Of a stretch of DNA of 27,476 nt, positions 16,487 to 27,476 are shown one piece after another (position 1 is the first letter of the stretch; every line of letters begins with the position of its first letter). The DNA is taken from IMG/VR virus record IMGVR_UViG_3300028962_000002. One strand, 5' to 3'. The DNA is from a virus. Taxonomy: Duplodnaviria > Heunggongvirae > Uroviricota > Caudoviricetes. Position numbers and translations under genes: made by a program. The notes beneath the pieces are model-generated. The model searched no databases and was not told the origin of the DNA. It worked only from the letters and a program-made list of their open reading frames with translations.

Positions 16487-16822
16487 ATGAAGTGGATTGT
16501 GATTGATACAGTTATCCAGCCATCATGCGGAATATCTTTTTCAGTCATATGGAGTAAAATAAAATTAATAATCTGGTATCAATCGGATGCTTTCTTACCT
16601 CCTGAAAGTATATTTACACTGACTCACACAGGTATCATGCTCAATAACAAAGTGCTACCTGTAACCATTTACAACGTAGTACCATTCAATAAAACATTCT
16701 GGAATTTAATCAAAAACAGCCAGGAATGCCCTACAAATACAGATAACGTATTGAATGAATGCTTTAATAACCGTTGCACTCTGCAAATATGTCCTTATGG
16801 GCTAAAACAACAAAGTCCATAA
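16487..16822 (+). CDS. Hypothetical protein in an AT-rich moron island, opposite strand to the late genes
   Basis: AAGGAAA RBS before the ATG; region 16250-16850 is strongly AT-rich compared with the flanking phage DNA; 111 aa, Cys-containing. Not recognised. Confidence 0.5.
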
Positions 16823-16857
16823 GGAGTTTACTCACATCTGACAAAATCAATATAAAC

Positions 16858-16879
16858 AGCCCCTCCGGAGAGGGGCTGG
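16858..16879. terminator. Perfect 9-bp GC-rich hairpin (cagcccctc-cgga-gaggggctg), candidate terminator
   Basis: Stem-loop read directly; on the minus strand it is followed by a T-rich but interrupted tract (TTTATATTGATTTTG). Confidence 0.35.
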
Positions 16880-17178
16880 AGAGTGGCGCTATGTGCCATT
16901 GCATGGTGCCGGGTGCCTCCCGGTGAATTCAGTACCAGCACCTGAATCCGCGATTATCCCATATACCTACTCGCTGATTGCCCCTCCGCACAGGGGGATT
17001 CACCATGCCAGTTTCTTTTAACAAACTCCCCGCAAACCAGACAACAGTCAACCGCCTGAATTGTGAAGTATTTAAAAATTTCTCCCGCTAACTGATACCC
17101 GGCTAACAGTCTGGCGTTTTCTTTTTCAGCAACGGGAAAGCAACAACCACCACACCCACCAGCCGCCCATTTACCACA

Positions 17179-20057: not shown

Positions 20058-20309
20058 TTATTCTTCTGAAAAAGCAGAAAAGCCAGCTTTTATTCCGATC
20101 TCTTTCAATGCCTGTAATGAAGTGACAAACTCACCGTCGTGCAAGATAAATCCGTCCGTCACTCGGGCATCCACAAAATTAATTAACGCAGCCCCATTTT
20201 TTTGCAAACACACAATGCGGTAATGGCTAACAATATTTCCATTTTCAACGCACACAGCATAGAGGCCATCTTCACAAAAAATTTTACGCAGTTCTTCGAT
20301 GTTCATCAT
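20058..20309 (-). CDS. Small hypothetical protein (Rem-like by position and size)
   Basis: 83 aa; GGAAGGA RBS before ATGATG; lies immediately before hok as rem does in Qin; identity to Rem not verified. Confidence 0.5.
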   Translation of the reverse strand: MMNIEELRKIFCEDGLYAVCVENGNIVSHYRIVCLQKNGAALINFVDARVTDGFILHDGEFVTSLQALKEIGIKAGFSAFSEE

Positions 20310-20430
20310 CAGAATCCTTCCGGATAATTAGCTCTCCCCTTTAAGGGACCATCCCTCTTATCCCTGCGCGCTACTTAAGTATTTTTGATTCTATTCCGGC
20401 ACCGTCCAGATCTTCAAACGCGTTGAAAAT

Positions 20431-20458
20431 AAAAACAAAAACCCGCCGAAGCGGGTTA
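20431..20458 (-). terminator. Intrinsic terminator downstream of hok (minus strand)
   Basis: Hairpin cccgc-ttcg-gcggg followed on the minus strand by TTTTTGTTTTT. Confidence 0.65.
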
Positions 20459-20525
20459 AGTGCGGGTGCGTTGAGGATGCCTGCCACATCAGAGGTGGCG
20501 AGGGATTTCTCCCTCGCCTGGTCTC

Positions 20526-20681
20526 TTACTCCTCAGGTTCGTAAGCTGTGAAGACAGCGACCTCCGTCTGGCCGGTTCGGATTCGTACCTCGCAGAGGTC
20601 TTTCCTCGTTACCAGTGCCGTCACTATGACGGTTAAACAGATGACGATCAGGGCGATTAACATCGCCTTTTGCTGCTTCAT
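20526..20681 (-). CDS. hokD: Hok-family membrane toxin (type I toxin-antitoxin), HokD-like
   Basis: MKQQKAMLIALIVICLTVIVTALVTRKDLCEVRIRTGQTEVAVFTAYEPEE, 51 aa, canonical Hok sequence. Confidence 0.92.
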   Translation of the reverse strand: MKQQKAMLIALIVICLTVIVTALVTRKDLCEVRIRTGQTEVAVFTAYEPEE

Positions 20682-20738
20682 AGCCTGCTTCTCCTTGCCT
20701 TTCGGCTCGTAAGAGGCTAACCTACATGTGTCTAGCAT
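20526..20738 (-). CDS. Mok-like leader reading frame: in-frame N-terminal extension of hok (70 codons)
   Basis: MLDTCRLASYEPKGKEKQA followed by the Hok sequence, resembling the chromosomal Mok leader pattern (M-L-N-T-C-R...KEKRA-MKQ). Confidence 0.6.
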   Translation of the reverse strand: MLDTCRLASYEPKGKEKQAMKQQKAMLIALIVICLTVIVTALVTRKDLCEVRIRTGQTEVAVFTAYEPEE

Positions 20739-21355
20739 GAAATTGGCCTCAGATTAATGTTAAGCGTCTTGCAGGACGCGTAATGTTAACTGGGGCTTTT
20801 CTCTATCTGCCTTTGGTGTTCATGCCCGAGGCAGATAGCCTCAAGCACCCGCAGCCATTCTACTTAACTACCGTTACCTCGCCAATATGAAATCAGTCAG
20901 AAAGGCGATCCATAAGAACAATAGCAAGACAATAAATCGCCATTACAGCCGTAATAGCCAGCGCACATTTGAGAACCAGCACCACAACCTCCTGTATTGG
21001 ACGTAGACCAGTCCTGATGAATATGAGGCTGTCTCGTCAGTGATTCAATACAACTATTGGGTATAGTTTCTCTGATTTTTTCTGTGGAAATGGGGCACAA
21101 CCACTAGTCACCACCAGCACTTCTTTTAATACGCAAAGTCCGACACAAGCTAACCTTCTAGTCCGCTTTGAGCGAAAAACAGCCATAATTTAGTGCCACG
21201 TATATAATGATAGAGCTATTCAAGCTAGCAATTCACATGTAAAAATTCAGAGGGTAGAAGCACATAGTTATAAATGTTGGCTCCATCGACAAATTGCGGT
21301 CTCAAGTACATTTATTAATGTTGCCCCCGCATTAACAAATCATCAAGGTGACGAC

Positions 21356-23143
21356 ATGGACGATATTAATATCAGCCTCGACGAACTTAACACTATTGAT
21401 TTATCCCCCTTAATCCAGAGTAAGCTGCCAGTTACCTGCTTTGATATCACAAAGTATCTTTCTAGCCTAGGTGATGGAAGAGCGGAGATAAGACTGCTAA
21501 CCCATATTTGCGGTTTTCACTTTCGTCCCGAAAATCCACAGGTACCATTTGGTCCGTGCTTTCAAAGCAGCCAAGGTAGATCTGCAATTCCGGATGACAT
21601 TAACGGGTTGTCGCTGGAGGTACTTTCTCAATTTTGCCCGACGATAGAGCTACCCGAACTTCAAGCTCGTATTGCTGATACACTTTGGGTTCGTAAAATT
21701 GGTGGAATCCGTTTTCCTTTGCTGGCAGTCCGTGCTTATTATGCGTCCAGTATAGCTATTATGACATCGCAAGGGACGTGGGTTAGTGCTTTAGAACGCC
21801 TAGAGCGTGCGCTTAGGCTGTGTTGTTTTTTTCGAAAGAATACTGATTTCAGGGATGAATTTGATCAGCTTTCGGCACATCTACTAGCAGAGTATGAACG
21901 TACCAGAGAACAAGGCGATTCACCTTATCCGCTGCGACTCCTGCAACTCGATATCGACTGTAAAGTGAGTGAGCCATCTTTTATTGCCCAGGAACTCCTG
22001 TTTCTGACAAAAAACTATCTGGCTCAAAAATTATTTTCATTTGCCGTCGATGCCTGTAAAACCGCAATCACGATTGCGAATAGGTGCTGTGACAGAGATA
22101 CACAGTTTGAATTCTGGCGGCTTCTTGCCGATACACATCTGGAAGAGTCAAAATTCCAAGATGGCGGTATGATTTCGGCAGCCTGCATGCAGAATGCTAT
22201 TGAAGCACTGGCTAATATTCCAGGAACCCGAATAGAACGTCTTGCGCTGTATGAAGAAATGCGTGATTACCAAATCGAATCCCGTCACCAGATGTCTATC
22301 CTTCAGTCTCCCCCTCAAGATATTAGTGAGATTGTCCATCAAGCCAAGAGTCGGGTAGTCGGAAGAGATATGTTTGATATGGTTTTCAGACTTGCGATGC
22401 TGGTCTGTCGGCCAACCAGCATTGAGAGACTTAAGGCTCAAGCAATAGAACAAAAGGCCAACAGCATAGCTTGGATGTTTGGATCAACACATATTGATCA
22501 TGAGGGAATGACACTTGCTCGCATACCCGCAGGATTGGGGATTGATGATGCAAATGGGGCAGTTATTTGGCCCATAATGATGACGAGAATGCGTATCGAC
22601 CATGAGTTGGCAGTAGCTGGGCAAATTATTCCTGCTACAGATGAGATCACAATGAAATATCCAATCTCGGAGGCGTTTTTTCGCGATATGTTCATCAATC
22701 ATCCCTTCATCCCGTTTGGGCATGAAGAGTTTTTCATCAAGGGTATGGTTTGCGGTTTCAATGGAGATTTTATGACGGCATGCCACGTGTTGATTCCCCA
22801 GATCGAAAATAGTCTGAGATATGTGGCTAAAATTAAAGGTGAGGAACCATCGCAGCTTCACGGGGACGGTTCGCAAGAGCGAAATGGACTCAAGGGATTA
22901 CTAGATAATCCACTGATTATTGAAGCTTTCGGCGTAGACATAATTGGCAATCTTCAGGCCTTACTGGTAGATAAAATCTATGGTGATTTACGAAATCAAC
23001 TAGCTCACGGATATGTGCCTGCCGGTTACTACAATCAACCTCCCTGCATTTTTGCATGGTGGCTTGTATTGCACATTCTAATGAACCCTACGGCGAGATA
23101 CTGGCAAGCCACTTATGGCCAAGAGAGTGAGGCTCAGACTTAA
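21356..23143 (+). CDS. Hypothetical 595-aa protein with C-terminal Rx4H (HEPN-like) motif; candidate defence/abortive-infection effector
   Basis: AAGGTGA RBS before the ATG; long clean frame; lower GC than the phage backbone; only plus-strand gene in a minus-strand block; C-terminal ...IYGDLRNQLAHGYVP contains R-N-x-x-A-H. Confidence 0.85.
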   Translation: MDDINISLDELNTIDLSPLIQSKLPVTCFDITKYLSSLGDGRAEIRLLTHICGFHFRPENPQVPFGPCFQSSQGRSAIPDDINGLSLEVLSQFCPTIELPELQARIADTLWVRKIGGIRFPLLAVRAYYASSIAIMTSQGTWVSALERLERALRLCCFFRKNTDFRDEFDQLSAHLLAEYERTREQGDSPYPLRLLQLDIDCKVSEPSFIAQELLFLTKNYLAQKLFSFAVDACKTAITIANRCCDRDTQFEFWRLLADTHLEESKFQDGGMISAACMQNAIEALANIPGTRIERLALYEEMRDYQIESRHQMSILQSPPQDISEIVHQAKSRVVGRDMFDMVFRLAMLVCRPTSIERLKAQAIEQKANSIAWMFGSTHIDHEGMTLARIPAGLGIDDANGAVIWPIMMTRMRIDHELAVAGQIIPATDEITMKYPISEAFFRDMFINHPFIPFGHEEFFIKGMVCGFNGDFMTACHVLIPQIENSLRYVAKIKGEEPSQLHGDGSQERNGLKGLLDNPLIIEAFGVDIIGNLQALLVDKIYGDLRNQLAHGYVPAGYYNQPPCIFAWWLVLHILMNPTARYWQATYGQESEAQT

Positions 23144-23361
23144 AGTGAATAAGTTTACGAAGTTGGCACTTCCGGATGCATGTCCATATGAGTTGAGGCG
23201 ATTTGGTTAATAAGGTTGAGTGCTGCTGAAATTATTCGATGTCCGCTTTTGGCACAAAGCGGACAACCACGCCAGATCTACCCTGTGCCATGAAAAATGA
23301 GAATGTCAATTCACTCCTGAACTAATGCTTTTTAATCTAGTAACGTCTAAAATACCTAACA

Positions 23362-23763
23362 TTATCCCTGATAAAATGCCAGTATGCGCTGCATAACTTC
23401 ACTCATCCGGCACTCGCGACAGATTATGTTTAGGCGACTGTCGTAGCGACGTATTTCTCCATCAGGTAACGACCAGATAAGGTCCGGATCAACCACAGCT
23501 GTTTTCTTCACCTTTGCCCTCGAGAGTTTTTTGCGGGCGTTTTGCCAGTCCTTACGCGCCTGTTCAGACGGGAATAACCCGTAGCCGGAGTTGTATACAT
23601 CGCCACTGGCTACCAGCTCTCTGGCAAGAACGCTCATCAGATATCTAGTCGCACCTGTTTTAGCTTCCAGTTGCCGTAACGTCTCACGACCGCTCTGGCG
23701 CACGAGTTCCACCACCTGCCCTTTAATTTTTTCCCGCTCTTCTTGTGTAAAAACTTTTGCCAC
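23362..23763 (-). CDS. Hypothetical 133-aa basic protein downstream of the replication gene
   Basis: GTG start with AAGGGGGA RBS; MAKVFTQEEREKIKGQVVELVRQ...; ren/nin-like position. Not recognised. Confidence 0.5.
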   Translation of the reverse strand: MAKVFTQEEREKIKGQVVELVRQSGRETLRQLEAKTGATRYLMSVLARELVASGDVYNSGYGLFPSEQARKDWQNARKKLSRAKVKKTAVVDPDLIWSLPDGEIRRYDSRLNIICRECRMSEVMQRILAFYQG

Positions 23764-23803
23764 AAGTCCCCCTTAAAATTACCTCATGACCTGAAATCAA
23801 AAC

Positions 23804-24769
23804 TTATCCTCTGAAACCAGGCGGAATTTCTGTATCCGGTTCAGAAATATGATTAACACAACGCTGTACAGGTGAACGCCCCAGGCGGATGACCAGTTCG
23901 TCCCATTTTTCGCGGAGCTTTGACGGGCTCATGATGTTTTTTACCCAGAATGGATCCCGCTGTACCCGACCAAACATTTCACAAATTTGTCTGTGGCTTC
24001 TGCCATCCAGCATCCGCATTGTGCGCACATCATTGGCCCAGACAGTCCAGTTAGGCTCTTTTGGTCGCATGATCTCGCCATCATCACTGGCGGCCTGTTC
24101 GTAGAGACCCACGATCCGCCCCCATATCCACTGCGCACACGCCAGATCCTCCTGGCTACCCCACTGGCGTTTTTTCGCACTAAACACAACTGCGCCAGGG
24201 TGCCGGATTAAAAAATCCTGTTCAGCCGTCTGCGGGTCCGGTTGCGAAGCTTCCGGACGAAAAGTGTTTTTATTCTCTGTAGTAATCTCTGTTGTATTCT
24301 CTGTAGGATCATCGGGCCATTTTGACCCGATGACATTGGGTCGTTTTGAACCAATGGAGCGTTTCATTTTGACCTCTTCCATCGTGTCATTTTGACCTGA
24401 TGGAGCGGCGCATTTTGAACCGATGGATTCGCTCAATTTGCCATCATCTAAAAGCTCGCTTCCATAGTTAATCGTGTAGAAATTGGTCATATCGCGCTTT
24501 GATTTATTGAGCTTTTCACAACGCAAAAGCCCCAGCGTTTTCAGACTTGCAAACGCGCGCTTTAACGTTGACTCTGACCAGAATGGGAACTGTTCCAGCC
24601 ATTGTTCCGTTGTGTTGTAAATCCAGCGAACACCATCACATTCCATGCCGGAATTGGTATCTCTCAACCAGTAATGCAACTGCTGCAACACAATGGCTTC
24701 ATTTAAGCCAATCTTCATCGCAAGCTGTGTGTTTATAACCAGTGGGCGTTCAGCAAAAAGAAGGCTCAT
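23804..24769 (-). CDS. Replication initiator (lambda O-like) with N-terminal HTH region and internal origin iterons
   Basis: Start taken at MSLLFAERPLVINTQLAMKIGLNEAIVLQQLHYWL; the gene contains 5 direct DNA repeats that encode a repeated IGSK peptide, as lambda ori iterons lie within O. Confidence 0.7.
   Translation of the reverse strand: MSLLFAERPLVINTQLAMKIGLNEAIVLQQLHYWLRDTNSGMECDGVRWIYNTTEQWLEQFPFWSESTLKRAFASLKTLGLLRCEKLNKSKRDMTNFYTINYGSELLDDGKLSESIGSKCAAPSGQNDTMEEVKMKRSIGSKRPNVIGSKWPDDPTENTTEITTENKNTFRPEASQPDPQTAEQDFLIRHPGAVVFSAKKRQWGSQEDLACAQWIWGRIVGLYEQAASDDGEIMRPKEPNWTVWANDVRTMRMLDGRSHRQICEMFGRVQRDPFWVKNIMSPSKLREKWDELVIRLGRSPVQRCVNHISEPDTEIPPGFRG
24317..24427. repeat. Candidate origin of replication: five direct iterons of consensus CATTTTGA(A/C)C..GATGG spaced 23-24 bp
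   Basis: ccattttgacccgatg, tcgttttgaaccaatgg, tcattttgacctc, tcattttgacctgatgg, gcattttgaaccgatgg, read directly; an AT-richer segment follows at 24431-24530. Confidence 0.65.
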
Positions 24770-25271
24770 AATTCCATCCAGCTTTTTGTTGGTATTGCTG
24801 TCGATACGCAAGTTTGAAAGCAATTGCTTTTTCTATAAGTTCGTCAGTTTCACGATCCACTACGGCAGGATCAGCAAAAAGCAGTCCGGACTCCACCACA
24901 TCGCCATATTCTTTGTTTAACCCGGCGATCATGTACGTGATGCTTTTTCCGTCACTAATTTCACGATACAACCTGAAATCATTAATCCGGATAGCCTCCA
25001 TAATTGCAGGCACTAGCGCCGTGAACTTTTCACGCTTATCCCTGGTGTCGATAGCCTTCCAGCGTTCGAATATCTTCACTCGATTAACGCCAAGCGCTCG
25101 CTGATCAACCGCGCCACCTTCATCTGTGACACGCTGAACATCGATGTTCGGGCGCTCTTTCAAAGCCCAGAATGCTTCAGTGATTAATATCGTCGCCTGC
25201 TCCTGTGTCATTCCTGGTCGACATATCCAGGCATCCAGAGCCTCACGAGCCTGTTCAGGAGTGATTTTCAT
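24750..25271 (-). CDS. YdaT-like protein (cII position, downstream of Cro-like gene)
   Basis: 173 aa; ...KREKFTALVPAIMEAI... resembles the Rac YdaT segment (...QREKIQKLIPAILAIL...) as recalled; follows the Cro-like gene as ydaT follows ydaS. Confidence 0.55.
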   Translation of the reverse strand: MKITPEQAREALDAWICRPGMTQEQATILITEAFWALKERPNIDVQRVTDEGGAVDQRALGVNRVKIFERWKAIDTRDKREKFTALVPAIMEAIRINDFRLYREISDGKSITYMIAGLNKEYGDVVESGLLFADPAVVDRETDELIEKAIAFKLAYRQQYQQKAGWNYEPSFC

Positions 25272-25482
25272 TGTTCAACCGCCCCGCCCGCTTCGTCTTA
25301 CGATATTCGTCATAAACCTTGGGATCATACAGAAGCTCGCCGCCAGATGCCTCCTGTAGACGCATCGCGCGACCTTCAGGAACCAGCTCTTGCCATTGAG
25401 AAACAGCAGATGGGTCAACGCCAGCAGCTTTCGCTACTTTGGCTTTCGTACCGTAAAAATTAATTACGTCTGATTTAAACAT
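25255..25482 (-). CDS. dicC: Cro-like regulator (DicC-like)
   Basis: Start MFKSDVINFYG with GGAGGT RBS; C-terminal ...PEGRAMRLQEASGGELLYDPKVYDEYRKTKRAGRLNNENHS; divergent from the repressor gene. Confidence 0.75.
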   Translation of the reverse strand: MFKSDVINFYGTKAKVAKAAGVDPSAVSQWQELVPEGRAMRLQEASGGELLYDPKVYDEYRKTKRAGRLNNENHS

Positions 25483-25559
25483 CGCACCTCCAGTATTGAG
25501 TTTTCTCAATGCTAATCACTCAAGGAATCTCAAGTCAAGGGTTATTAAGATATCTAAAT
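25483..25559. promoter_or_regulatory. Divergent promoter/operator region between Cro-like and repressor genes
   Basis: Perfect palindrome attgag-tttt-ctcaat at 25495-25510 and a nearby CTCAAGG-AAT-CTCAAG repeat; 77-bp intergenic region; the repressor ATG has no RBS (possibly leaderless, as lambda cI from pRM). Confidence 0.6.
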
Positions 25560-25967
25560 ATGAACGAGAAAACTTTAGGTCAACGCATTAGAGAAAGACG
25601 TAAGCAGGTAGGTTTAAGTCAAAACGGTTTAAGCAAAGCTGCTGGCGTATCTGGCTCATCAATTTCATTATGGGAAAGTGACCATACAGCCCCGCGCGGG
25701 CAAAATTTGCATCGCCTCGCCGAGGTATTGCAATGTTCACCAACCTGGATACTGTTTGGCGACGAGGACAAAACACCAGCTCCCCCTGTTTCACTCGATA
25801 GTGCCTTAGACTTATCGGAAGATGAGTTAGAGATGCTGCGTTTGTATCGCGCACTTCCTAAATCAGAGCAACAAGCACAACTCAGCGAACTCCGCGCCCG
25901 CGTTGAGAATTTTAATCGCCTGTTCACCGAGCTATTAGAGGCTCGCAAACGCAACAAGCATCAATAA
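25560..25967 (+). CDS. dicA: HTH (XRE-family) prophage repressor, DicA-like
   Basis: 135 aa from MNEKTLGQRIRERRKQVGLSQNGLSKAAGVSGSSISLWES...LAEVLQCSPTWILFGDEDK...; HTH near the N-terminus; C-terminal half matches DicA as recalled. Confidence 0.88.
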   Translation: MNEKTLGQRIRERRKQVGLSQNGLSKAAGVSGSSISLWESDHTAPRGQNLHRLAEVLQCSPTWILFGDEDKTPAPPVSLDSALDLSEDELEMLRLYRALPKSEQQAQLSELRARVENFNRLFTELLEARKRNKHQ

Positions 25968-26159
25968 TCATCCCTTCACAAAATTTTAAAGCCTTACATT
26001 TCAATGTATTGGCTTTATCTTGCGCCAATACTTGAGTTTTCTCATCAAAAAGCCTTGACGAAAAATAATGAGAAAACTAAATTACCTCCATCAACACACC
26101 GCACGGTGTTCTCAGCAAACAGTTCCGCTACCCCGGCGTTAAGGGGAAATGAGGTCAGC

Positions 26160-26315
26160 ATGGATACTATCGATCTTGGCAACAACGAATCTCTGGTGTA
26201 CGGCGTGTTTCCAAACCAGGACGGCACGTTCACCGCAATGACGTATACCAAAAGCAAAACGTTTAAAACCGAAAATGGTGCCCGTCGCTGGCTGGAAAGA
26301 AACTCAGGTGAGTGA
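26160..26315 (+). CDS. ydfA: Small protein YdfA-like (DUF1391-like), 51 aa
   Basis: GAGG RBS; MDTIDLGNNESLVYGVFPNQDGTFTAMTYTKSKTFKTENGARRWLERNSGE; first gene after the repressor, as in the Qin dicA-ydfABC-dicF-dicB operon. Confidence 0.65.
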   Translation: MDTIDLGNNESLVYGVFPNQDGTFTAMTYTKSKTFKTENGARRWLERNSGE

Positions 26316-26316
26316 T

Positions 26317-26892
26317 ATGGATTTCGACACAATCATGGAAAAGGCTTACGAAGAATACTTCGAAGGCCTTGCCGAAGGCGAAGAAGCTCTCAGCTTCAGT
26401 GAGTTTAAACAGGCACTCAGAATAAGAATGCGCTCTCACAATGACGCGGAGCACAAATATGAGAAGCAAAATCAGACCGCAGAAAATTTTGTTCTGGAAC
26501 CCGGAGAAACGCTTTTCAAAATTCCCGTTACGTGCCCCATTTGCGGTTTTACATCAGAAGAACTTGACGACTCCTGTAACAATCAGGAAACAACCAAGTA
26601 TGTCGAAGATGATACCGAGTGCGCACGAAGAACGATTATATCCACGAGTCCAAACTCCAGGACCAATAAATCTCACTTTGAGAGGGTGATTAATCCACTC
26701 CCCCAAACCAATAAAAAAGATGCCGGAGGACAAAAAAACCAATGGAACAACGGGATATCTGTCAAAAAAAGACGTTCCATTAAAGACAAACAACGCAGCG
26801 CCAACAACTGTAAGCGCTTTATACCAGTAATCAATTTTCATGTTCTTAAGCGGATTTATTGGTGGTTGCGACATTGCTTAATGAATCCTTAA
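26317..26892 (+). CDS. Hypothetical 191-aa protein (ydfB/ydfC-like position), basic low-complexity C-terminus
   Basis: ATG 2 nt after the ydfA stop with AGGTGA RBS (MDFDTIMEKAYEEYFEGLAEGEE...); contains CPICGF; an antisense membrane-like ORF overlaps it, so the gene model is ambiguous. Confidence 0.45.
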   Translation: MDFDTIMEKAYEEYFEGLAEGEEALSFSEFKQALRIRMRSHNDAEHKYEKQNQTAENFVLEPGETLFKIPVTCPICGFTSEELDDSCNNQETTKYVEDDTECARRTIISTSPNSRTNKSHFERVINPLPQTNKKDAGGQKNQWNNGISVKKRRSIKDKQRSANNCKRFIPVINFHVLKRIYWWLRHCLMNP

Positions 26893-27151
26893 AACTGTGG
26901 TGATTTTAAGGATACCACCTCGCCTGACGTGGTTAAAAGCAGGCACACAACACGAAAGCGCACGGCGAAGTTCGTCTCACTGTACGGTGTCGTCAAATTT
27001 AATTCGACCGTGCGCTTCCGGTTGTGGCAACCCGCGAAATGGCGCGGCGGTAAGTATGGCGGGGTTATTCCTTCCCCGTTGAGGACACCGAGTTGTCAGG
27101 TTGACCATACGCTTAAGCGACAACCCCGCTGCAACGCCCTCTGTTATCAAT

Positions 27152-27209
27152 TTTCTGGTGACGTTTGGCGGTATCAGTTTTACTCCGTGACTGCTCTGCC
27201 GCCGTTTTT
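27152..27209 (+). ncRNA. dicF: DicF small RNA (53-nt core plus U-tail)
   Basis: tttctggtgacgtttggcggtatcagttttactccgtgactgctctgccgcc followed by gttttt, matching the E. coli DicF sequence as recalled; ends in a hairpin plus U-run. Confidence 0.88.
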
Positions 27210-27378
27210 AAAGTGAATTTTGTGATGCGGTGAATGCGGCTAAGCGCACGCGGAACAGTTAAAACCAAAAACAGTGTTATGGGTGGATTCTCTGTATCCG
27301 GCGTTAATTGTTAACTGGTTAACGTCACCTGGAGGCACCAGGCACTGCATCACAAAATTCATTGTTGAGGACGCGATA

Positions 27379-27476
27379 ATGAAAACGTTATTACCAAACG
27401 TTAAGGAAGGTGCGAATAAGCGGGGAAATTCTTCTCGGCTGACTCAGTCATTTCATTTCTTCATGTTTGAGCCGAT
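27379..27476 (+). CDS. dicB-like ORF start (cell division inhibitor position); continues past the window end
   Basis: ATG about 175 nt after DicF; first 8 residues MKTLLPNV match DicB as recalled, the remainder diverges; truncated by the window. Confidence 0.4.
   Translation, partial: MKTLLPNVKEGANKRGNSSRLTQSFHFFMFEP

What the first reader, a model, noticed from the sequence alone, without database searches (positions are those of the whole stretch)
25255..27476. Mosaic genome: Qin-type dicA/dicC/dicF/dicB immunity and division-inhibition module on a lambda-type structural backbone
The immunity region and the downstream ydfA / DicF / dicB-like operon resemble the cryptic Qin prophage, while packaging, head and tail genes are lambda-like and lysis genes are P21-like. 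DicF (ftsZ-targeting sRNA) appears intact; the dicB-like ORF shares only its first 8 residues with K-12 DicB as recalled.
Basis: partly seen in the sequence, partly recalled or inferred. Interest (0 to 1): 0.45.

Follow-up and report, generated by a model that had tools for sequence, protein, structure and literature searches.

The report
Qin-type prophage switch, IS5-broken dicB
The flagged stretch is the well-known repressor switch and cell-division-inhibitor (DicF/DicB) operon of a common Qin/mEp460-type E. coli prophage, with dicB cut by an IS5 insertion. The "mosaic" is a join between two prophages that lie far apart in the closest finished genome, so it is either a very recent rearrangement or an assembly error.

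Summary
These are a DicC/Cro-like gene, a 135-aa DicA-like HTH repressor with no S24 domain, ydfA, an intact DicF (Rfam 72.5 bits) and the start of dicB.

The "dicB-like ORF with only 8 matching residues" is not a diverged gene. It is ordinary dicB interrupted after codon 8 by IS5, at a TTAA target. The window ends 72 bp into the element.

The immunity cassette belongs to the DicA/DicC family but has a different specificity from K-12 Qin. DicA is 57% identical and the operator sequence differs. It is about 98% identical to the isolated phages mEp460_ev081 and HannyBb.

Virion genes are phage 21-type (93-100% aa) rather than lambda-type (52-66%). Holin and endolysin are closer to Qin's EssQ and RrrQ than to P21.

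There is a real junction, but at about 20.2-20.7 kb (rem-hokD), outside the flagged interval. Window 1-20410 is identical to a potB/potC-site prophage of E. coli 2017C-4173W12. Window 20411-27476 is identical, bar one base, to that strain's Qin-site prophage 0.63 Mb away in inverted orientation. None of 5,426 complete genomes has the join. It is either a recent inversion or a chimeric contig.

Overall the feature is ordinary and already known.

The parts
20058..20309 (-). rem, the antirepressor of DicA. The allele here is the prophage-A type.
   Evidence: 83/83 aa identical to prophage A Rem, and 77/83 to prophage B and K-12 Rem. Rem relieves DicA repression of dicBp in K-12 (PMC10448788).
20235..20696 (.). 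Crossover zone between prophage A (left) and prophage B (right), in the rem-hokD interval.
   Evidence: The last run of A-specific SNPs ends at 20234. B-specific bases occur at 20411 and 20419, a lone A-type base at 20519, and B-type bases from 20697 on. There are 0 mismatches to A over 1-20410 and 1 mismatch to B over 20411-27476.
20526..20850 (-). hokD toxin gene and Sok antisense RNA (type I toxin-antitoxin).
   Evidence: Rfam RF01794, 116 bits. Annotated hokD in identical genomes.
21356..23143 (+). DUF7380/DUF4209 protein, a candidate defence gene (PADLOC PDC-S39). It occupies the slot held by relBE/ydfV/flxA in K-12 Qin.
   Evidence: Pfam; PADLOC E = 8e-103; K-12 map.
23362..24769 (-). 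DUF977/Ren-like gene (23362-23763) and O-like replication initiator (23804-24769).
   Evidence: Pfam and PHROG hits.
24750..25271 (-). YdaT-family / CII-like gene. K-12 ydfX is its truncated remnant.
   Evidence: Pfam YdaT_toxin and PHROG 163. 91/93 aa identical to K-12 YdfX.
25255..25482 (-). dicC-like Cro repressor.
   Evidence: Pfam P22_Cro, E = 3e-16. 70% identical to K-12 DicC: the N-terminal HTH part differs and the C-terminal 41 aa are nearly identical.
25496..25538 (.). Operator copy 1 (TTGAGTTTTCTCA, 25496-25508) next to a leftward promoter-like site for dicC (25538-25509).
25560..25967 (+). dicA-like prophage repressor, 135 aa, HTH_3 only.
   Evidence: Pfam HTH_3, E = 2e-15, no S24 domain. 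57% identical to K-12 DicA and 53% to the prophage A repressor. The gene lies within a block about 98% nt identical to phage mEp460_ev081.
26029..26084 (+). dicBp-type promoter (TTGACG, 17 nt spacer, TAAATT; 26055-26083) bracketed by operator copies 2 (26032-26044) and 3 (26069-26081, inverted).
   Evidence: K-12 and prophage A have the same layout with different operator sequences.
26160..26315 (+). ydfA (DUF1391), first gene of the dicBF operon.
   Evidence: Pfam E = 2e-28. Lies in a 99.4% nt block shared with K-12.
26317..26417 (+). ydfB 5' part (first 34 codons as in K-12). Beyond 26417 the K-12 sequence (ydfB end plus ydfC) is replaced.
   Evidence: RefSeq's 191-aa ORF (26317-26892) runs antisense through the next gene and is probably spurious there.
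26554..26874 (-). 106-aa predicted three-helix membrane protein gene, antisense to the operon. It lies inside a 517-bp segment (26418-26934) absent from K-12 Qin.
   Evidence: Full-length homologues at 34-58% identity in Yersinia, Herminiimonas and Reinekea, with invariant DYWYKA and GLGEWxNHP motifs. The antisense frames are closed in the distant homologues. AF2 mean pLDDT is 81, with no fold match.
27153..27204 (+). DicF sRNA, intact.
   Evidence: Rfam RF00039, 72.5 bits, full length 1-52. One base differs from K-12, at the 3' end before the U tract. Terminator-like hairpin, -16.6 kcal/mol.
27379..27404 (+). dicB 5' stump: 8 codons plus 2 nt. TTAA at 27401-27404 is the IS5 target site.
   Evidence: Identity to IS5-free strains ends exactly at 27404. 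The uninterrupted allele in strain 118UI encodes the same 62-aa protein as K-12 DicB.
27405..27476 (.). Terminal 72 bp of IS5 (transposase on the opposite strand). The window ends inside it.
   Evidence: In the two genomes with the identical junction the element is 1195 bp, flanked by a TTAA duplication, and annotated as an IS5 transposase.

Best explanation
The interval 25255-27476 is the lysogeny switch and the promoter-proximal half of the dicBF operon of a Qin/mEp460-family lambdoid prophage.

How it most likely works:
- A short DicA-type repressor with no autocleavage domain binds three copies of a 13-nt near-palindrome. One copy lies between dicC and dicA. Two bracket the -35 and -10 of the rightward dicB promoter. 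This silences dicC and the operon ydfA-ydfB'-...-dicF-dicB.
- Derepression is expected to come through the Rem antirepressor encoded 5 kb away, not through RecA cleavage.
[quoted passage not shown] DicF pairs with ftsZ, xylR, pykA and manX mRNAs.

In this copy dicB has been knocked out by an IS5 insertion after codon 8. DicF can therefore still be made, but DicB cannot be made from its own start. IS5 also now separates the downstream genes (ydfD, exo, xis, int) from the promoter.

The cassette is heteroimmune to K-12 Qin. The slot between ydfB and dicF holds an antisense small membrane-protein gene instead of ydfC.

The virion and late genes to the left (1-20.4 kb) belong to a different, phage 21-type prophage. 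The join is in the shared rem-hokD segment.

What is shown: gene identities, IS5 junction, operator repeats, parentage of the two halves.
What is inferred from K-12 work: repression, Rem induction, RNA processing, polarity of IS5.
For: - DicF is called by Rfam at full length.
- The repressor has HTH_3 only, and the cro-like gene is P22_Cro family.
- The operator motif occurs three times at the expected places; 0 of 100 shuffles reach the observed count. The promoter-like site is at 26055-26083 and an inverted repeat brackets it. K-12 and prophage A have the same architecture with other half-sites.
- IS5: identity with 300+ genomes stops at 27404. The full 1195-bp element with a TTAA duplication and an annotated IS5 transposase is present in the only two genomes sharing the junction. 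The uninterrupted allele equals K-12 DicB.
- The element sits at the Qin site next to rspB.
- Phage mEp460_ev081 carries the immunity region (23241-26303, 98.0%) and the dicF-dicB segment (26908-27404, 98.6%); phage HannyBb matches 23366-27404 contiguously at 98.5%.
[quoted passage not shown] DicF targets are in PMC5069750. DicB function is in PMC6832061.
- Parentage of the two halves.
Against: - Nothing here was tested functionally.
- Operator assignment rests on repetition, position and analogy with K-12.
- Rem in this window is the prophage-A allele (6 of 83 residues differ from the B allele). Whether it acts on this DicA variant is unknown.
- Whether the antisense 106-aa gene or IS5 alters DicF output is unknown.
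- The window stops inside IS5, so the downstream part of the operon is known only from the two matching complete genomes.
Confidence: 0.88

Rival explanations
1. The A/B join at about 20.2-20.7 kb is real. A single reciprocal crossover between the inverted rem-hokD segments of the potB/potC-site prophage and the Qin-site prophage inverted about 0.63 Mb of chromosome. This created a hybrid prophage with phage 21-type late genes and A-type rem joined to the B-type early region.
For: - The two parents lie in opposite orientation in CP030768, at 3.948 Mb (minus strand) and 4.578 Mb (plus strand). One crossover would give exactly the order seen in the window.
- They share about 460 bp with only 3 differences, inside an approximately 1.9-kb block of roughly 89% identity.
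- Prophage-flanked inversions are well documented in E. coli, including one with breakpoints in type I toxin-antitoxin genes (PMC8991562, which also cites Iguchi 2006).
- The patchy A/B/A/B pattern over four sites could be mismatch-repair patches.
Against: - None of 5,426 complete genomes shows the join, including about 137 that carry prophage A over at least 80% of the query.
- No match to the junction in viral or species-representative genome collections.
- From memory of the K-12 map, the inversion would span the terminus asymmetrically.
Confidence: 0.4
2. The join is an assembly artefact. The window is a short-read contig that ran through the near-identical rem-hokD repeat shared by two prophages and came out on the wrong side.
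For: - Both halves are base-identical to two unlinked loci of one closed genome: 0 of 20,410 and 1 of 7,066 mismatches.
- The right end stops 72 bp into IS5.
- The left end falls in the tape-measure gene. The sequence just outside the window is at least 95% conserved in about 3,500 records, against about 600 for the first 700 bp inside it. Both ends therefore look like repeat-bounded contig ends.
- Another draft contig (L013) breaks in this same rem-hokD spacer.
- The alternating A/B alleles over 20411-20697 are what bubble-popping in a collapsed repeat would give.
Against: - Assemblers usually break at such repeats rather than mis-join.
- A 460-bp repeat can be spanned by read pairs.
- No reads are available to check.
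Confidence: 0.45
3. One reading: a diverged dicB paralogue and an evolutionarily notable mosaic of a Qin immunity module grafted onto a lambda backbone with P21 lysis genes.
For: - Lambdoid phages are mosaic.
- K-12 Qin matches the window only in patches.
- The holin is of the S21 class.
Against: - The ORF diverges exactly at an IS5 terminus with the expected TTAA target.
- The virion-gene donor has its own DicA/DicC/DicF/dicB module.
- Head genes are phage 21-type, not lambda-type.
- The endolysin is Qin RrrQ-like.
Confidence: 0.03

Closest known systems
Cryptic prophage Qin of E. coli K-12 (dicC-dicA-ydfABC-dicF-dicB-ydfD)
   Same: - Same chromosomal site next to rspB in the genomes carrying this sequence.
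- Same gene order: ydaT/ydfX, dicC, dicA, dicBp with flanking operators, ydfA, ydfB, dicF, dicB.
- ydfA and the 5' part of ydfB lie in a 99.4% nt block; dicF differs by 1 nt; the dicC C-terminus and ydfX region is 98% nt.
- rem and hokD lie upstream.
   Different: - The immunity cassette is replaced: DicA 57% aa, DicC 70% aa, operators TTGAG..CTCA here against TGTTAG..CTAACA in K-12.
- The ydfB end and ydfC are replaced by 517 bp carrying an antisense 106-aa gene.
- dicB is interrupted by IS5.
- A full YdaT, O-like, DUF977 and DUF4209 set is present where K-12 has remnants and relBE/flxA.
Temperate phages mEp460_ev081 (LR597641) and HannyBb (PP925841)
   Same: - mEp460_ev081 is about 98% nt identical over window 23241-26303 and 26908-27404.
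- HannyBb is 98.5% identical over 23366-27404 without a break.
- Same repressor, cro, operators, ydfA, dicF and dicB start.
   Different: - These phages have an intact dicB.
- mEp460_ev081 has an HK97-type head module (ClpP-capsid fusion), like prophage B, not the phage 21-type head in this window.
- mEp460_ev081 differs in the ydfB-dicF slot (26304-26907).
Phage 21 (OL657228, M81255)
   Same: - Terminase large subunit, portal, protease/scaffold, decoration, capsid, FI and FII are 91-100% aa identical.
- The cos-proximal 1.4 kb is 98.7% nt identical.
- The holin is class II, 77% aa identical.
   Different: - The small terminase is only 40% identical.
- The endolysin is 31% identical to R21.
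- Phage 21 has a CI/LexA-like repressor with N, and no dicBF module.
IS5 insertions as gene knock-outs in E. coli
   Same: 1195-bp element with imperfect terminal repeats GGAAGGTGCGAA(T/C)AAG and a 4-bp TTAA (YTAR) target duplication.
   Different: This particular site (dicB codon 8/9) occurs in only 2 of 5,426 complete genomes.

Membership tests
Qin-type DicA/DicC immunity plus dicBF operon | Short (about 135 aa) HTH repressor without an S24/Ala-Gly autocleavage domain. | tested here: met
   135 aa, Pfam HTH_3 only. 57% identical to K-12 DicA.
Qin-type DicA/DicC immunity plus dicBF operon | Divergently transcribed Cro-like DicC followed by a YdaT/YdfX-family gene. | tested here: met
   P22_Cro E = 3e-16 and YdaT_toxin. 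70% identical to DicC and 91/93 to YdfX.
Qin-type DicA/DicC immunity plus dicBF operon | Three operator copies: one in the dicC-dicA spacer and two at dicBp. | tested here: met
   Copies at 25496-25508, 26032-26044 and 26069-81. Same layout in K-12 (PMC10448788). Binding itself was not tested.
Qin-type DicA/DicC immunity plus dicBF operon | DicF sRNA between the ydf genes and dicB. | tested here: met
   RF00039, 72.5 bits against a gathering score of 48.
Qin-type DicA/DicC immunity plus dicBF operon | Intact dicB (62 aa, PF05358). | tested here: not met
   Only 8 codons before IS5. The gene is a disrupted member, not a divergent one.
Qin-type DicA/DicC immunity plus dicBF operon | Same immunity specificity as K-12 Qin. 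| tested here: not met
   The HTH regions and operator half-sites differ. Heteroimmunity is inferred and was not assayed.
Qin-type DicA/DicC immunity plus dicBF operon | Rem antirepressor on the same element. | tested here: met
   rem at 20058-20309, but it is the allele of the other parental prophage.
Qin-type DicA/DicC immunity plus dicBF operon | Integration next to rspB. | not testable with these tools
   The window ends in IS5. The two genomes with the identical junction have int next to rspB.
Lambda-type virion module | Gene order Nu1-A-W-B-C-D-E-FI-FII-Z-U-V-G-T-H, with close identity to lambda. | tested here: inconclusive
   The order and protein sizes fit. Identity to lambda is 52-66% for head proteins against 93-100% to phage 21. 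The module has lambda architecture but belongs to the phage 21 lineage.
P21 lysis cassette (S21 pinholin plus R21 SAR endolysin) | Holin and endolysin orthologous to S21 and R21. | tested here: not met
   The holin is 77% identical to S21 but 80% to EssQ. The endolysin is 31% identical to R21 and 89% to RrrQ.
IS5 | Terminal repeat GGAAGGTGCGAA..., 4-bp YTAR duplication, 1195 bp, IS5 transposase. | tested here: met
   The window holds the first 72 bp. The full element with a TTAA duplication is in the identical genomes.

The most novel reading that the evidence does not exclude
The 106-aa three-helix membrane protein encoded antisense inside the dicBF operon (26554-26874) belongs to an uncharacterised family found from Escherichia and Yersinia prophages to Herminiimonas and Reinekea. 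It may be a lysogen-expressed superinfection-exclusion or abortive-infection factor. It occupies the same place, convergent with the repressor, in a Yersinia prophage. Its convergent transcription could also damp read-through to DicF.
Probability: 0.2. Interest if true: 0.4.

Novelty: already known. Interest (0 to 1): 0.12.

Why it matters
It matters little beyond correct annotation. The dicBF/DicA-DicC-Rem system is well studied, and this exact sequence occurs in hundreds of E. coli genomes and in isolated phages.

Useful points:
1. An apparent "divergent DicB" is an IS5 knock-out. It leaves DicF but removes DicB, a rare allele seen in 2 of 5,426 genomes.
2. The apparent mosaic joins two prophages of one strain and must be checked against reads before it is interpreted biologically.
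3. RefSeq's 191-aa ORF in the operon probably hides a real, conserved antisense membrane-protein gene.

Tried and rejected
- **Exact junction in other collections.** I searched with a SNP-spanning pattern. There were no matches in viral contigs or genome contigs. Two metagenome contigs matched the pattern but are other prophages, 92-97% identical and with a different layout.
- **dicB::IS5 junction in viral contigs.** No match.
- **Contexts of the A-type Rem protein.** The look-up returned only parental A-type contexts.
- **LexA box upstream of rem or the switch.** None at a relevant place, and the total count is not above chance.
- **Pfam, PHROG and PADLOC for the 106-aa protein.** No family found.
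- **Foldseek of its AF2 model against PDB and BFVD.** Nothing below E = 0.001.
- **The 95-aa ORF at 26929-27216 overlapping DicF.** No family hit, so I treated it as non-coding.
- **'Window derives from one known phage'.** Rejected: the best phage record covers 55% of window 1-24900.
Full report
**1. What is in the flagged interval**

Reading 25255-27476 with ORF listing, Pfam and Rfam gives the following, from left to right.

- A Cro-like gene on the minus strand at 25255-25482 (P22_Cro, E = 3e-16).
- A 77-bp spacer.
- A 135-aa helix-turn-helix repressor at 25560-25967. It has HTH_3 only and no Peptidase_S24 domain.
- A 192-bp spacer containing a sigma-70-like promoter (TTGACG, 17 nt, TAAATT, at 26055-26083).
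- ydfA (DUF1391) at 26160-26315.
- A ydfB-like start at 26317.
- DicF at 27153-27204 (RF00039, 72.5 bits against a gathering score of 48, full length).
- An ATG at 27379 that opens MKTLLPNV.

Against K-12 MG1655 Qin (fetched):

| Feature | Identity to K-12 | Note |
|---|---|---|
| Repressor vs DicA | 57% aa | |
| Cro-like protein vs DicC | 70% aa | N-terminal DNA-binding part differs; last 41 residues nearly identical |
| ydfA plus first 34 codons of ydfB | 99.4% nt (one block) | |
| DicF | 1 base differs | last base before the U tract |

**2. The 'dicB-like' ORF is dicB cut by IS5**

Several hundred E. coli genomes match 25200-27404 at or near 100% identity, and the match stops at 27404. Only two of 5,426 complete genomes (CP030768 and AP027563) match through to 27476.

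In those two genomes an annotated IS5 transposase lies immediately downstream. It is followed by the rest of dicB, then ydfD, an exonuclease gene, xis, int and rspB.

The element there is 1195 bp. It begins GGAAGGTGCGAATAAG, ends with the imperfect inverse, and is flanked by a TTAA duplication. The insertion point is GTT AA|T, at codons 8/9.

The uninterrupted allele in strain 118UI encodes a protein identical to K-12 DicB. The window's last 72 bases are therefore the IS5 end. The ORF's divergence after eight residues is read-through into IS5.

**3. The immunity cassette is a heteroimmune member of the DicA/DicC family**

A 13-nt near-palindrome, TTGAGTTTTCTCA, occurs exactly at 25496-25508 in the dicC-dicA spacer. 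It occurs exactly again at 26032-26044, just upstream of the -35. A third copy, inverted and with one mismatch, lies at 26069-26081 over the spacer and -10. No shuffle out of 100 reached the observed count.

K-12 Qin has the same layout but uses TGTTAG..CTAACA. The second prophage of the closest strain uses CTTAGG..CCTAAG. In all three, the sequence from just after the -10 onward (CATCAACACACCGCACGG...) is conserved.

So the DNA-binding halves of dicC and dicA, together with their operators, form an exchangeable cassette between conserved flanks. This is the classic lambdoid immunity pattern.

The published K-12 work describes three operators, DicA repression of dicBp and a DicA/DicC bistable switch. 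It also reports that DicA lacks the Ala-Gly cleavage site and is relieved by the Rem antirepressor, and that RNase III and RNase E process DicF from the dicBp transcript (PMC10448788). DicF targets are described in PMC5069750 and DicB function in PMC6832061.

The expected route is Rem, whose gene lies at 20058-20309, not RecA. No LexA box lies near rem or the switch.

**4. The module is already known on active phages**

Phage mEp460_ev081 is 98.0% identical over window 23241-26303 and 98.6% identical over 26908-27404. Phage HannyBb is 98.5% identical over 23366-27404 without interruption. Ragunathan et al. explicitly note that mEp460_ev081 is a functional phage carrying dicAC, dicBF and rem.

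**5. Module attributions for the rest of the window**

| Proteins | Closest match | Alternative |
|---|---|---|
| Terminase large subunit, portal, protease, decoration, capsid, FI, FII | phage 21, 91-100% aa | lambda, 34-70% (52-66% for the five head-shell and packaging proteins) |
| Tail proteins V, U, Z | equidistant between phage 21 and lambda | |
| Holin | EssQ (Qin), 80% | S21, 77% |
| Endolysin | RrrQ (Qin), 89% | R21, 31% |
| Rz | lambda, 69% | phage 21, 68% |

The cos-proximal 1.4 kb is 98.7% identical to phage 21. 'Lambda-like' should read 'phage 21-type', and 'P21-like lysis' holds only for the holin class.

**6. The real junction and its nature**

Window 1-20870 matches, at 99.9%, a prophage inserted between potB and potC in about 137 complete genomes. 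I call this prophage A. From about 20.4 kb onward the window matches the Qin-site prophage, which I call prophage B.

Ungapped comparison with strain 2017C-4173W12 (CP030768) gives these counts:
- 0 mismatches to A over 1-20410.
- 1 mismatch (at 20519, an A-type base) to B over 20411-27476.

The switch occurs in the rem-hokD interval. There A and B differ at only three sites over about 460 bp. The allele pattern across the zone is A...A (to 20234), then B, B (20411, 20419), then A (20519), then B... (20697 on).

In that genome A and B lie 0.63 Mb apart in opposite orientation. One reciprocal crossover would therefore invert the segment between them and produce exactly this order.

No complete genome has the join. 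I did not find it in viral, species-representative or metagenome collections either.

Several features point to a short-read contig bounded by repeats, in which case a mis-join through the collapsed rem-hokD repeat is equally plausible:
- The window ends 72 bp into IS5.
- It begins in the tape-measure gene, where conservation among prophages changes sharply.
- Another draft assembly breaks in the same spacer.

Prophage-flanked inversions are common in E. coli (PMC8991562). I cannot decide between the two from sequence alone and rate them about equal.

Either way, the pairing is not an evolutionary novelty. Prophage A has its own DicA-like repressor, which is 63% identical to K-12 DicA and so closer than this window's repressor. 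It also has its own Cro, YdaT, ydfA, DicF (61 bits) and dicB.

**7. Likely consequences in this copy (inferred)**

- DicF should still be produced on derepression.
- DicB cannot be made from its own start.
- IS5, with its transposase on the opposite strand, separates ydfD, exo, xis and int from dicBp.
- In the two matching genomes, PGAP annotates a 66-aa chimeric ORF that starts in the IS5 end and continues in frame into DicB residues 9-62. Whether it is expressed is unknown.
- Rem here is the A allele (6 of 83 residues differ from B). Rem proteins are at least 93% identical across prophages whose DicA proteins are only 53-63% identical. This suggests, but does not show, that Rem contacts the conserved C-terminal half of DicA.

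**8. Things seen in passing**

The 517 bp at 26418-26934 replace the K-12 ydfB end and ydfC. They carry, on the minus strand, a 106-aa hydrophobic ORF.
- It has full-length homologues at 34-58% identity in Yersinia, Herminiimonas, Reinekea and metagenomes, with invariant DYWYKA and GLGEWxNHP motifs.
- The opposite-strand frames are closed in the distant homologues. RefSeq's 191-aa plus-strand ORF is therefore probably a shadow.
- In a Yersinia prophage the homologue also lies convergent with an HTH_3 repressor next to a YdaS gene.
- The AF2 model (mean pLDDT 81) has three helices and a hairpin, with no fold match.

The 595-aa DUF7380/DUF4209 gene at 21356-23143 matches the PADLOC candidate defence system PDC-S39.

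**9. Verdict**

The feature is an already-known system in a common prophage, carrying a rare IS5 knock-out of dicB. The window's mosaic junction needs read-level confirmation before it is interpreted biologically.

Noticed in passing
window 26554-26874 (-), within the 517-bp segment 26418-26934: A conserved 106-aa predicted three-helix membrane protein gene lies antisense inside the dicBF operon and replaces ydfC. It has no Pfam, PHROG or PADLOC family and no fold match. Homologues occur in Yersinia prophages (same position relative to the repressor), Herminiimonas and Reinekea. RefSeq instead annotates a 191-aa plus-strand ORF over it.
   Followed up: partly
window 20235-20696: This is the switch point between two prophages that lie 0.63 Mb apart and inverted in strain 2017C-4173W12. 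Both flanks are base-identical to that genome. It is either an inversion or a chimeric contig.
   Followed up: partly
window 21356-23143 (+): A 595-aa DUF7380/DUF4209 protein matches the PADLOC candidate defence system PDC-S39 (E = 8e-103). It sits where K-12 Qin carries relBE, ydfV and flxA.
   Followed up: partly
window 26885-26913: A perfect 10-nt inverted repeat (ATCCTTAAAA, 9 nt, TTTTAAGGAT) lies just upstream of the start of the 106-aa gene. It could be a regulatory site.
   Followed up: no
window 27216-27356 (+) and 16848-17037 (-): A full STnc100 sRNA match (132 bits) lies downstream of the Q gene. A sub-threshold STnc100-like match (34.5 bits, E = 3e-5) lies between dicF and dicB.
   Followed up: no
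L004 38566-38766 (outside the window, in CP030768): PGAP annotates a 66-aa chimeric DicB that starts at an ATG in the IS5 end (MISYQGLVRTFL) and continues in frame with DicB residues 9-62.
   Followed up: partly
window 20058-20309 (-) compared with 25560-25967 (+): Rem antirepressors are at least 93% identical among three prophages whose DicA-type repressors are only 53-63% identical. This hints that Rem recognises the conserved C-terminal half of DicA.
   Followed up: partly
L006 43143-44431 (prophage A of CP030768): The other parental prophage has its own DicF. It also has isrK and C4 RNA matches and a Rha-family gene inserted ahead of dicB, so the source lineage probably carries at least two dicF copies.
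   Followed up: partly
window 16487-16822 (+): An IraM/PmrD-family anti-adaptor gene is carried as a moron between Q and the holin of the phage 21-type prophage.
   Followed up: no
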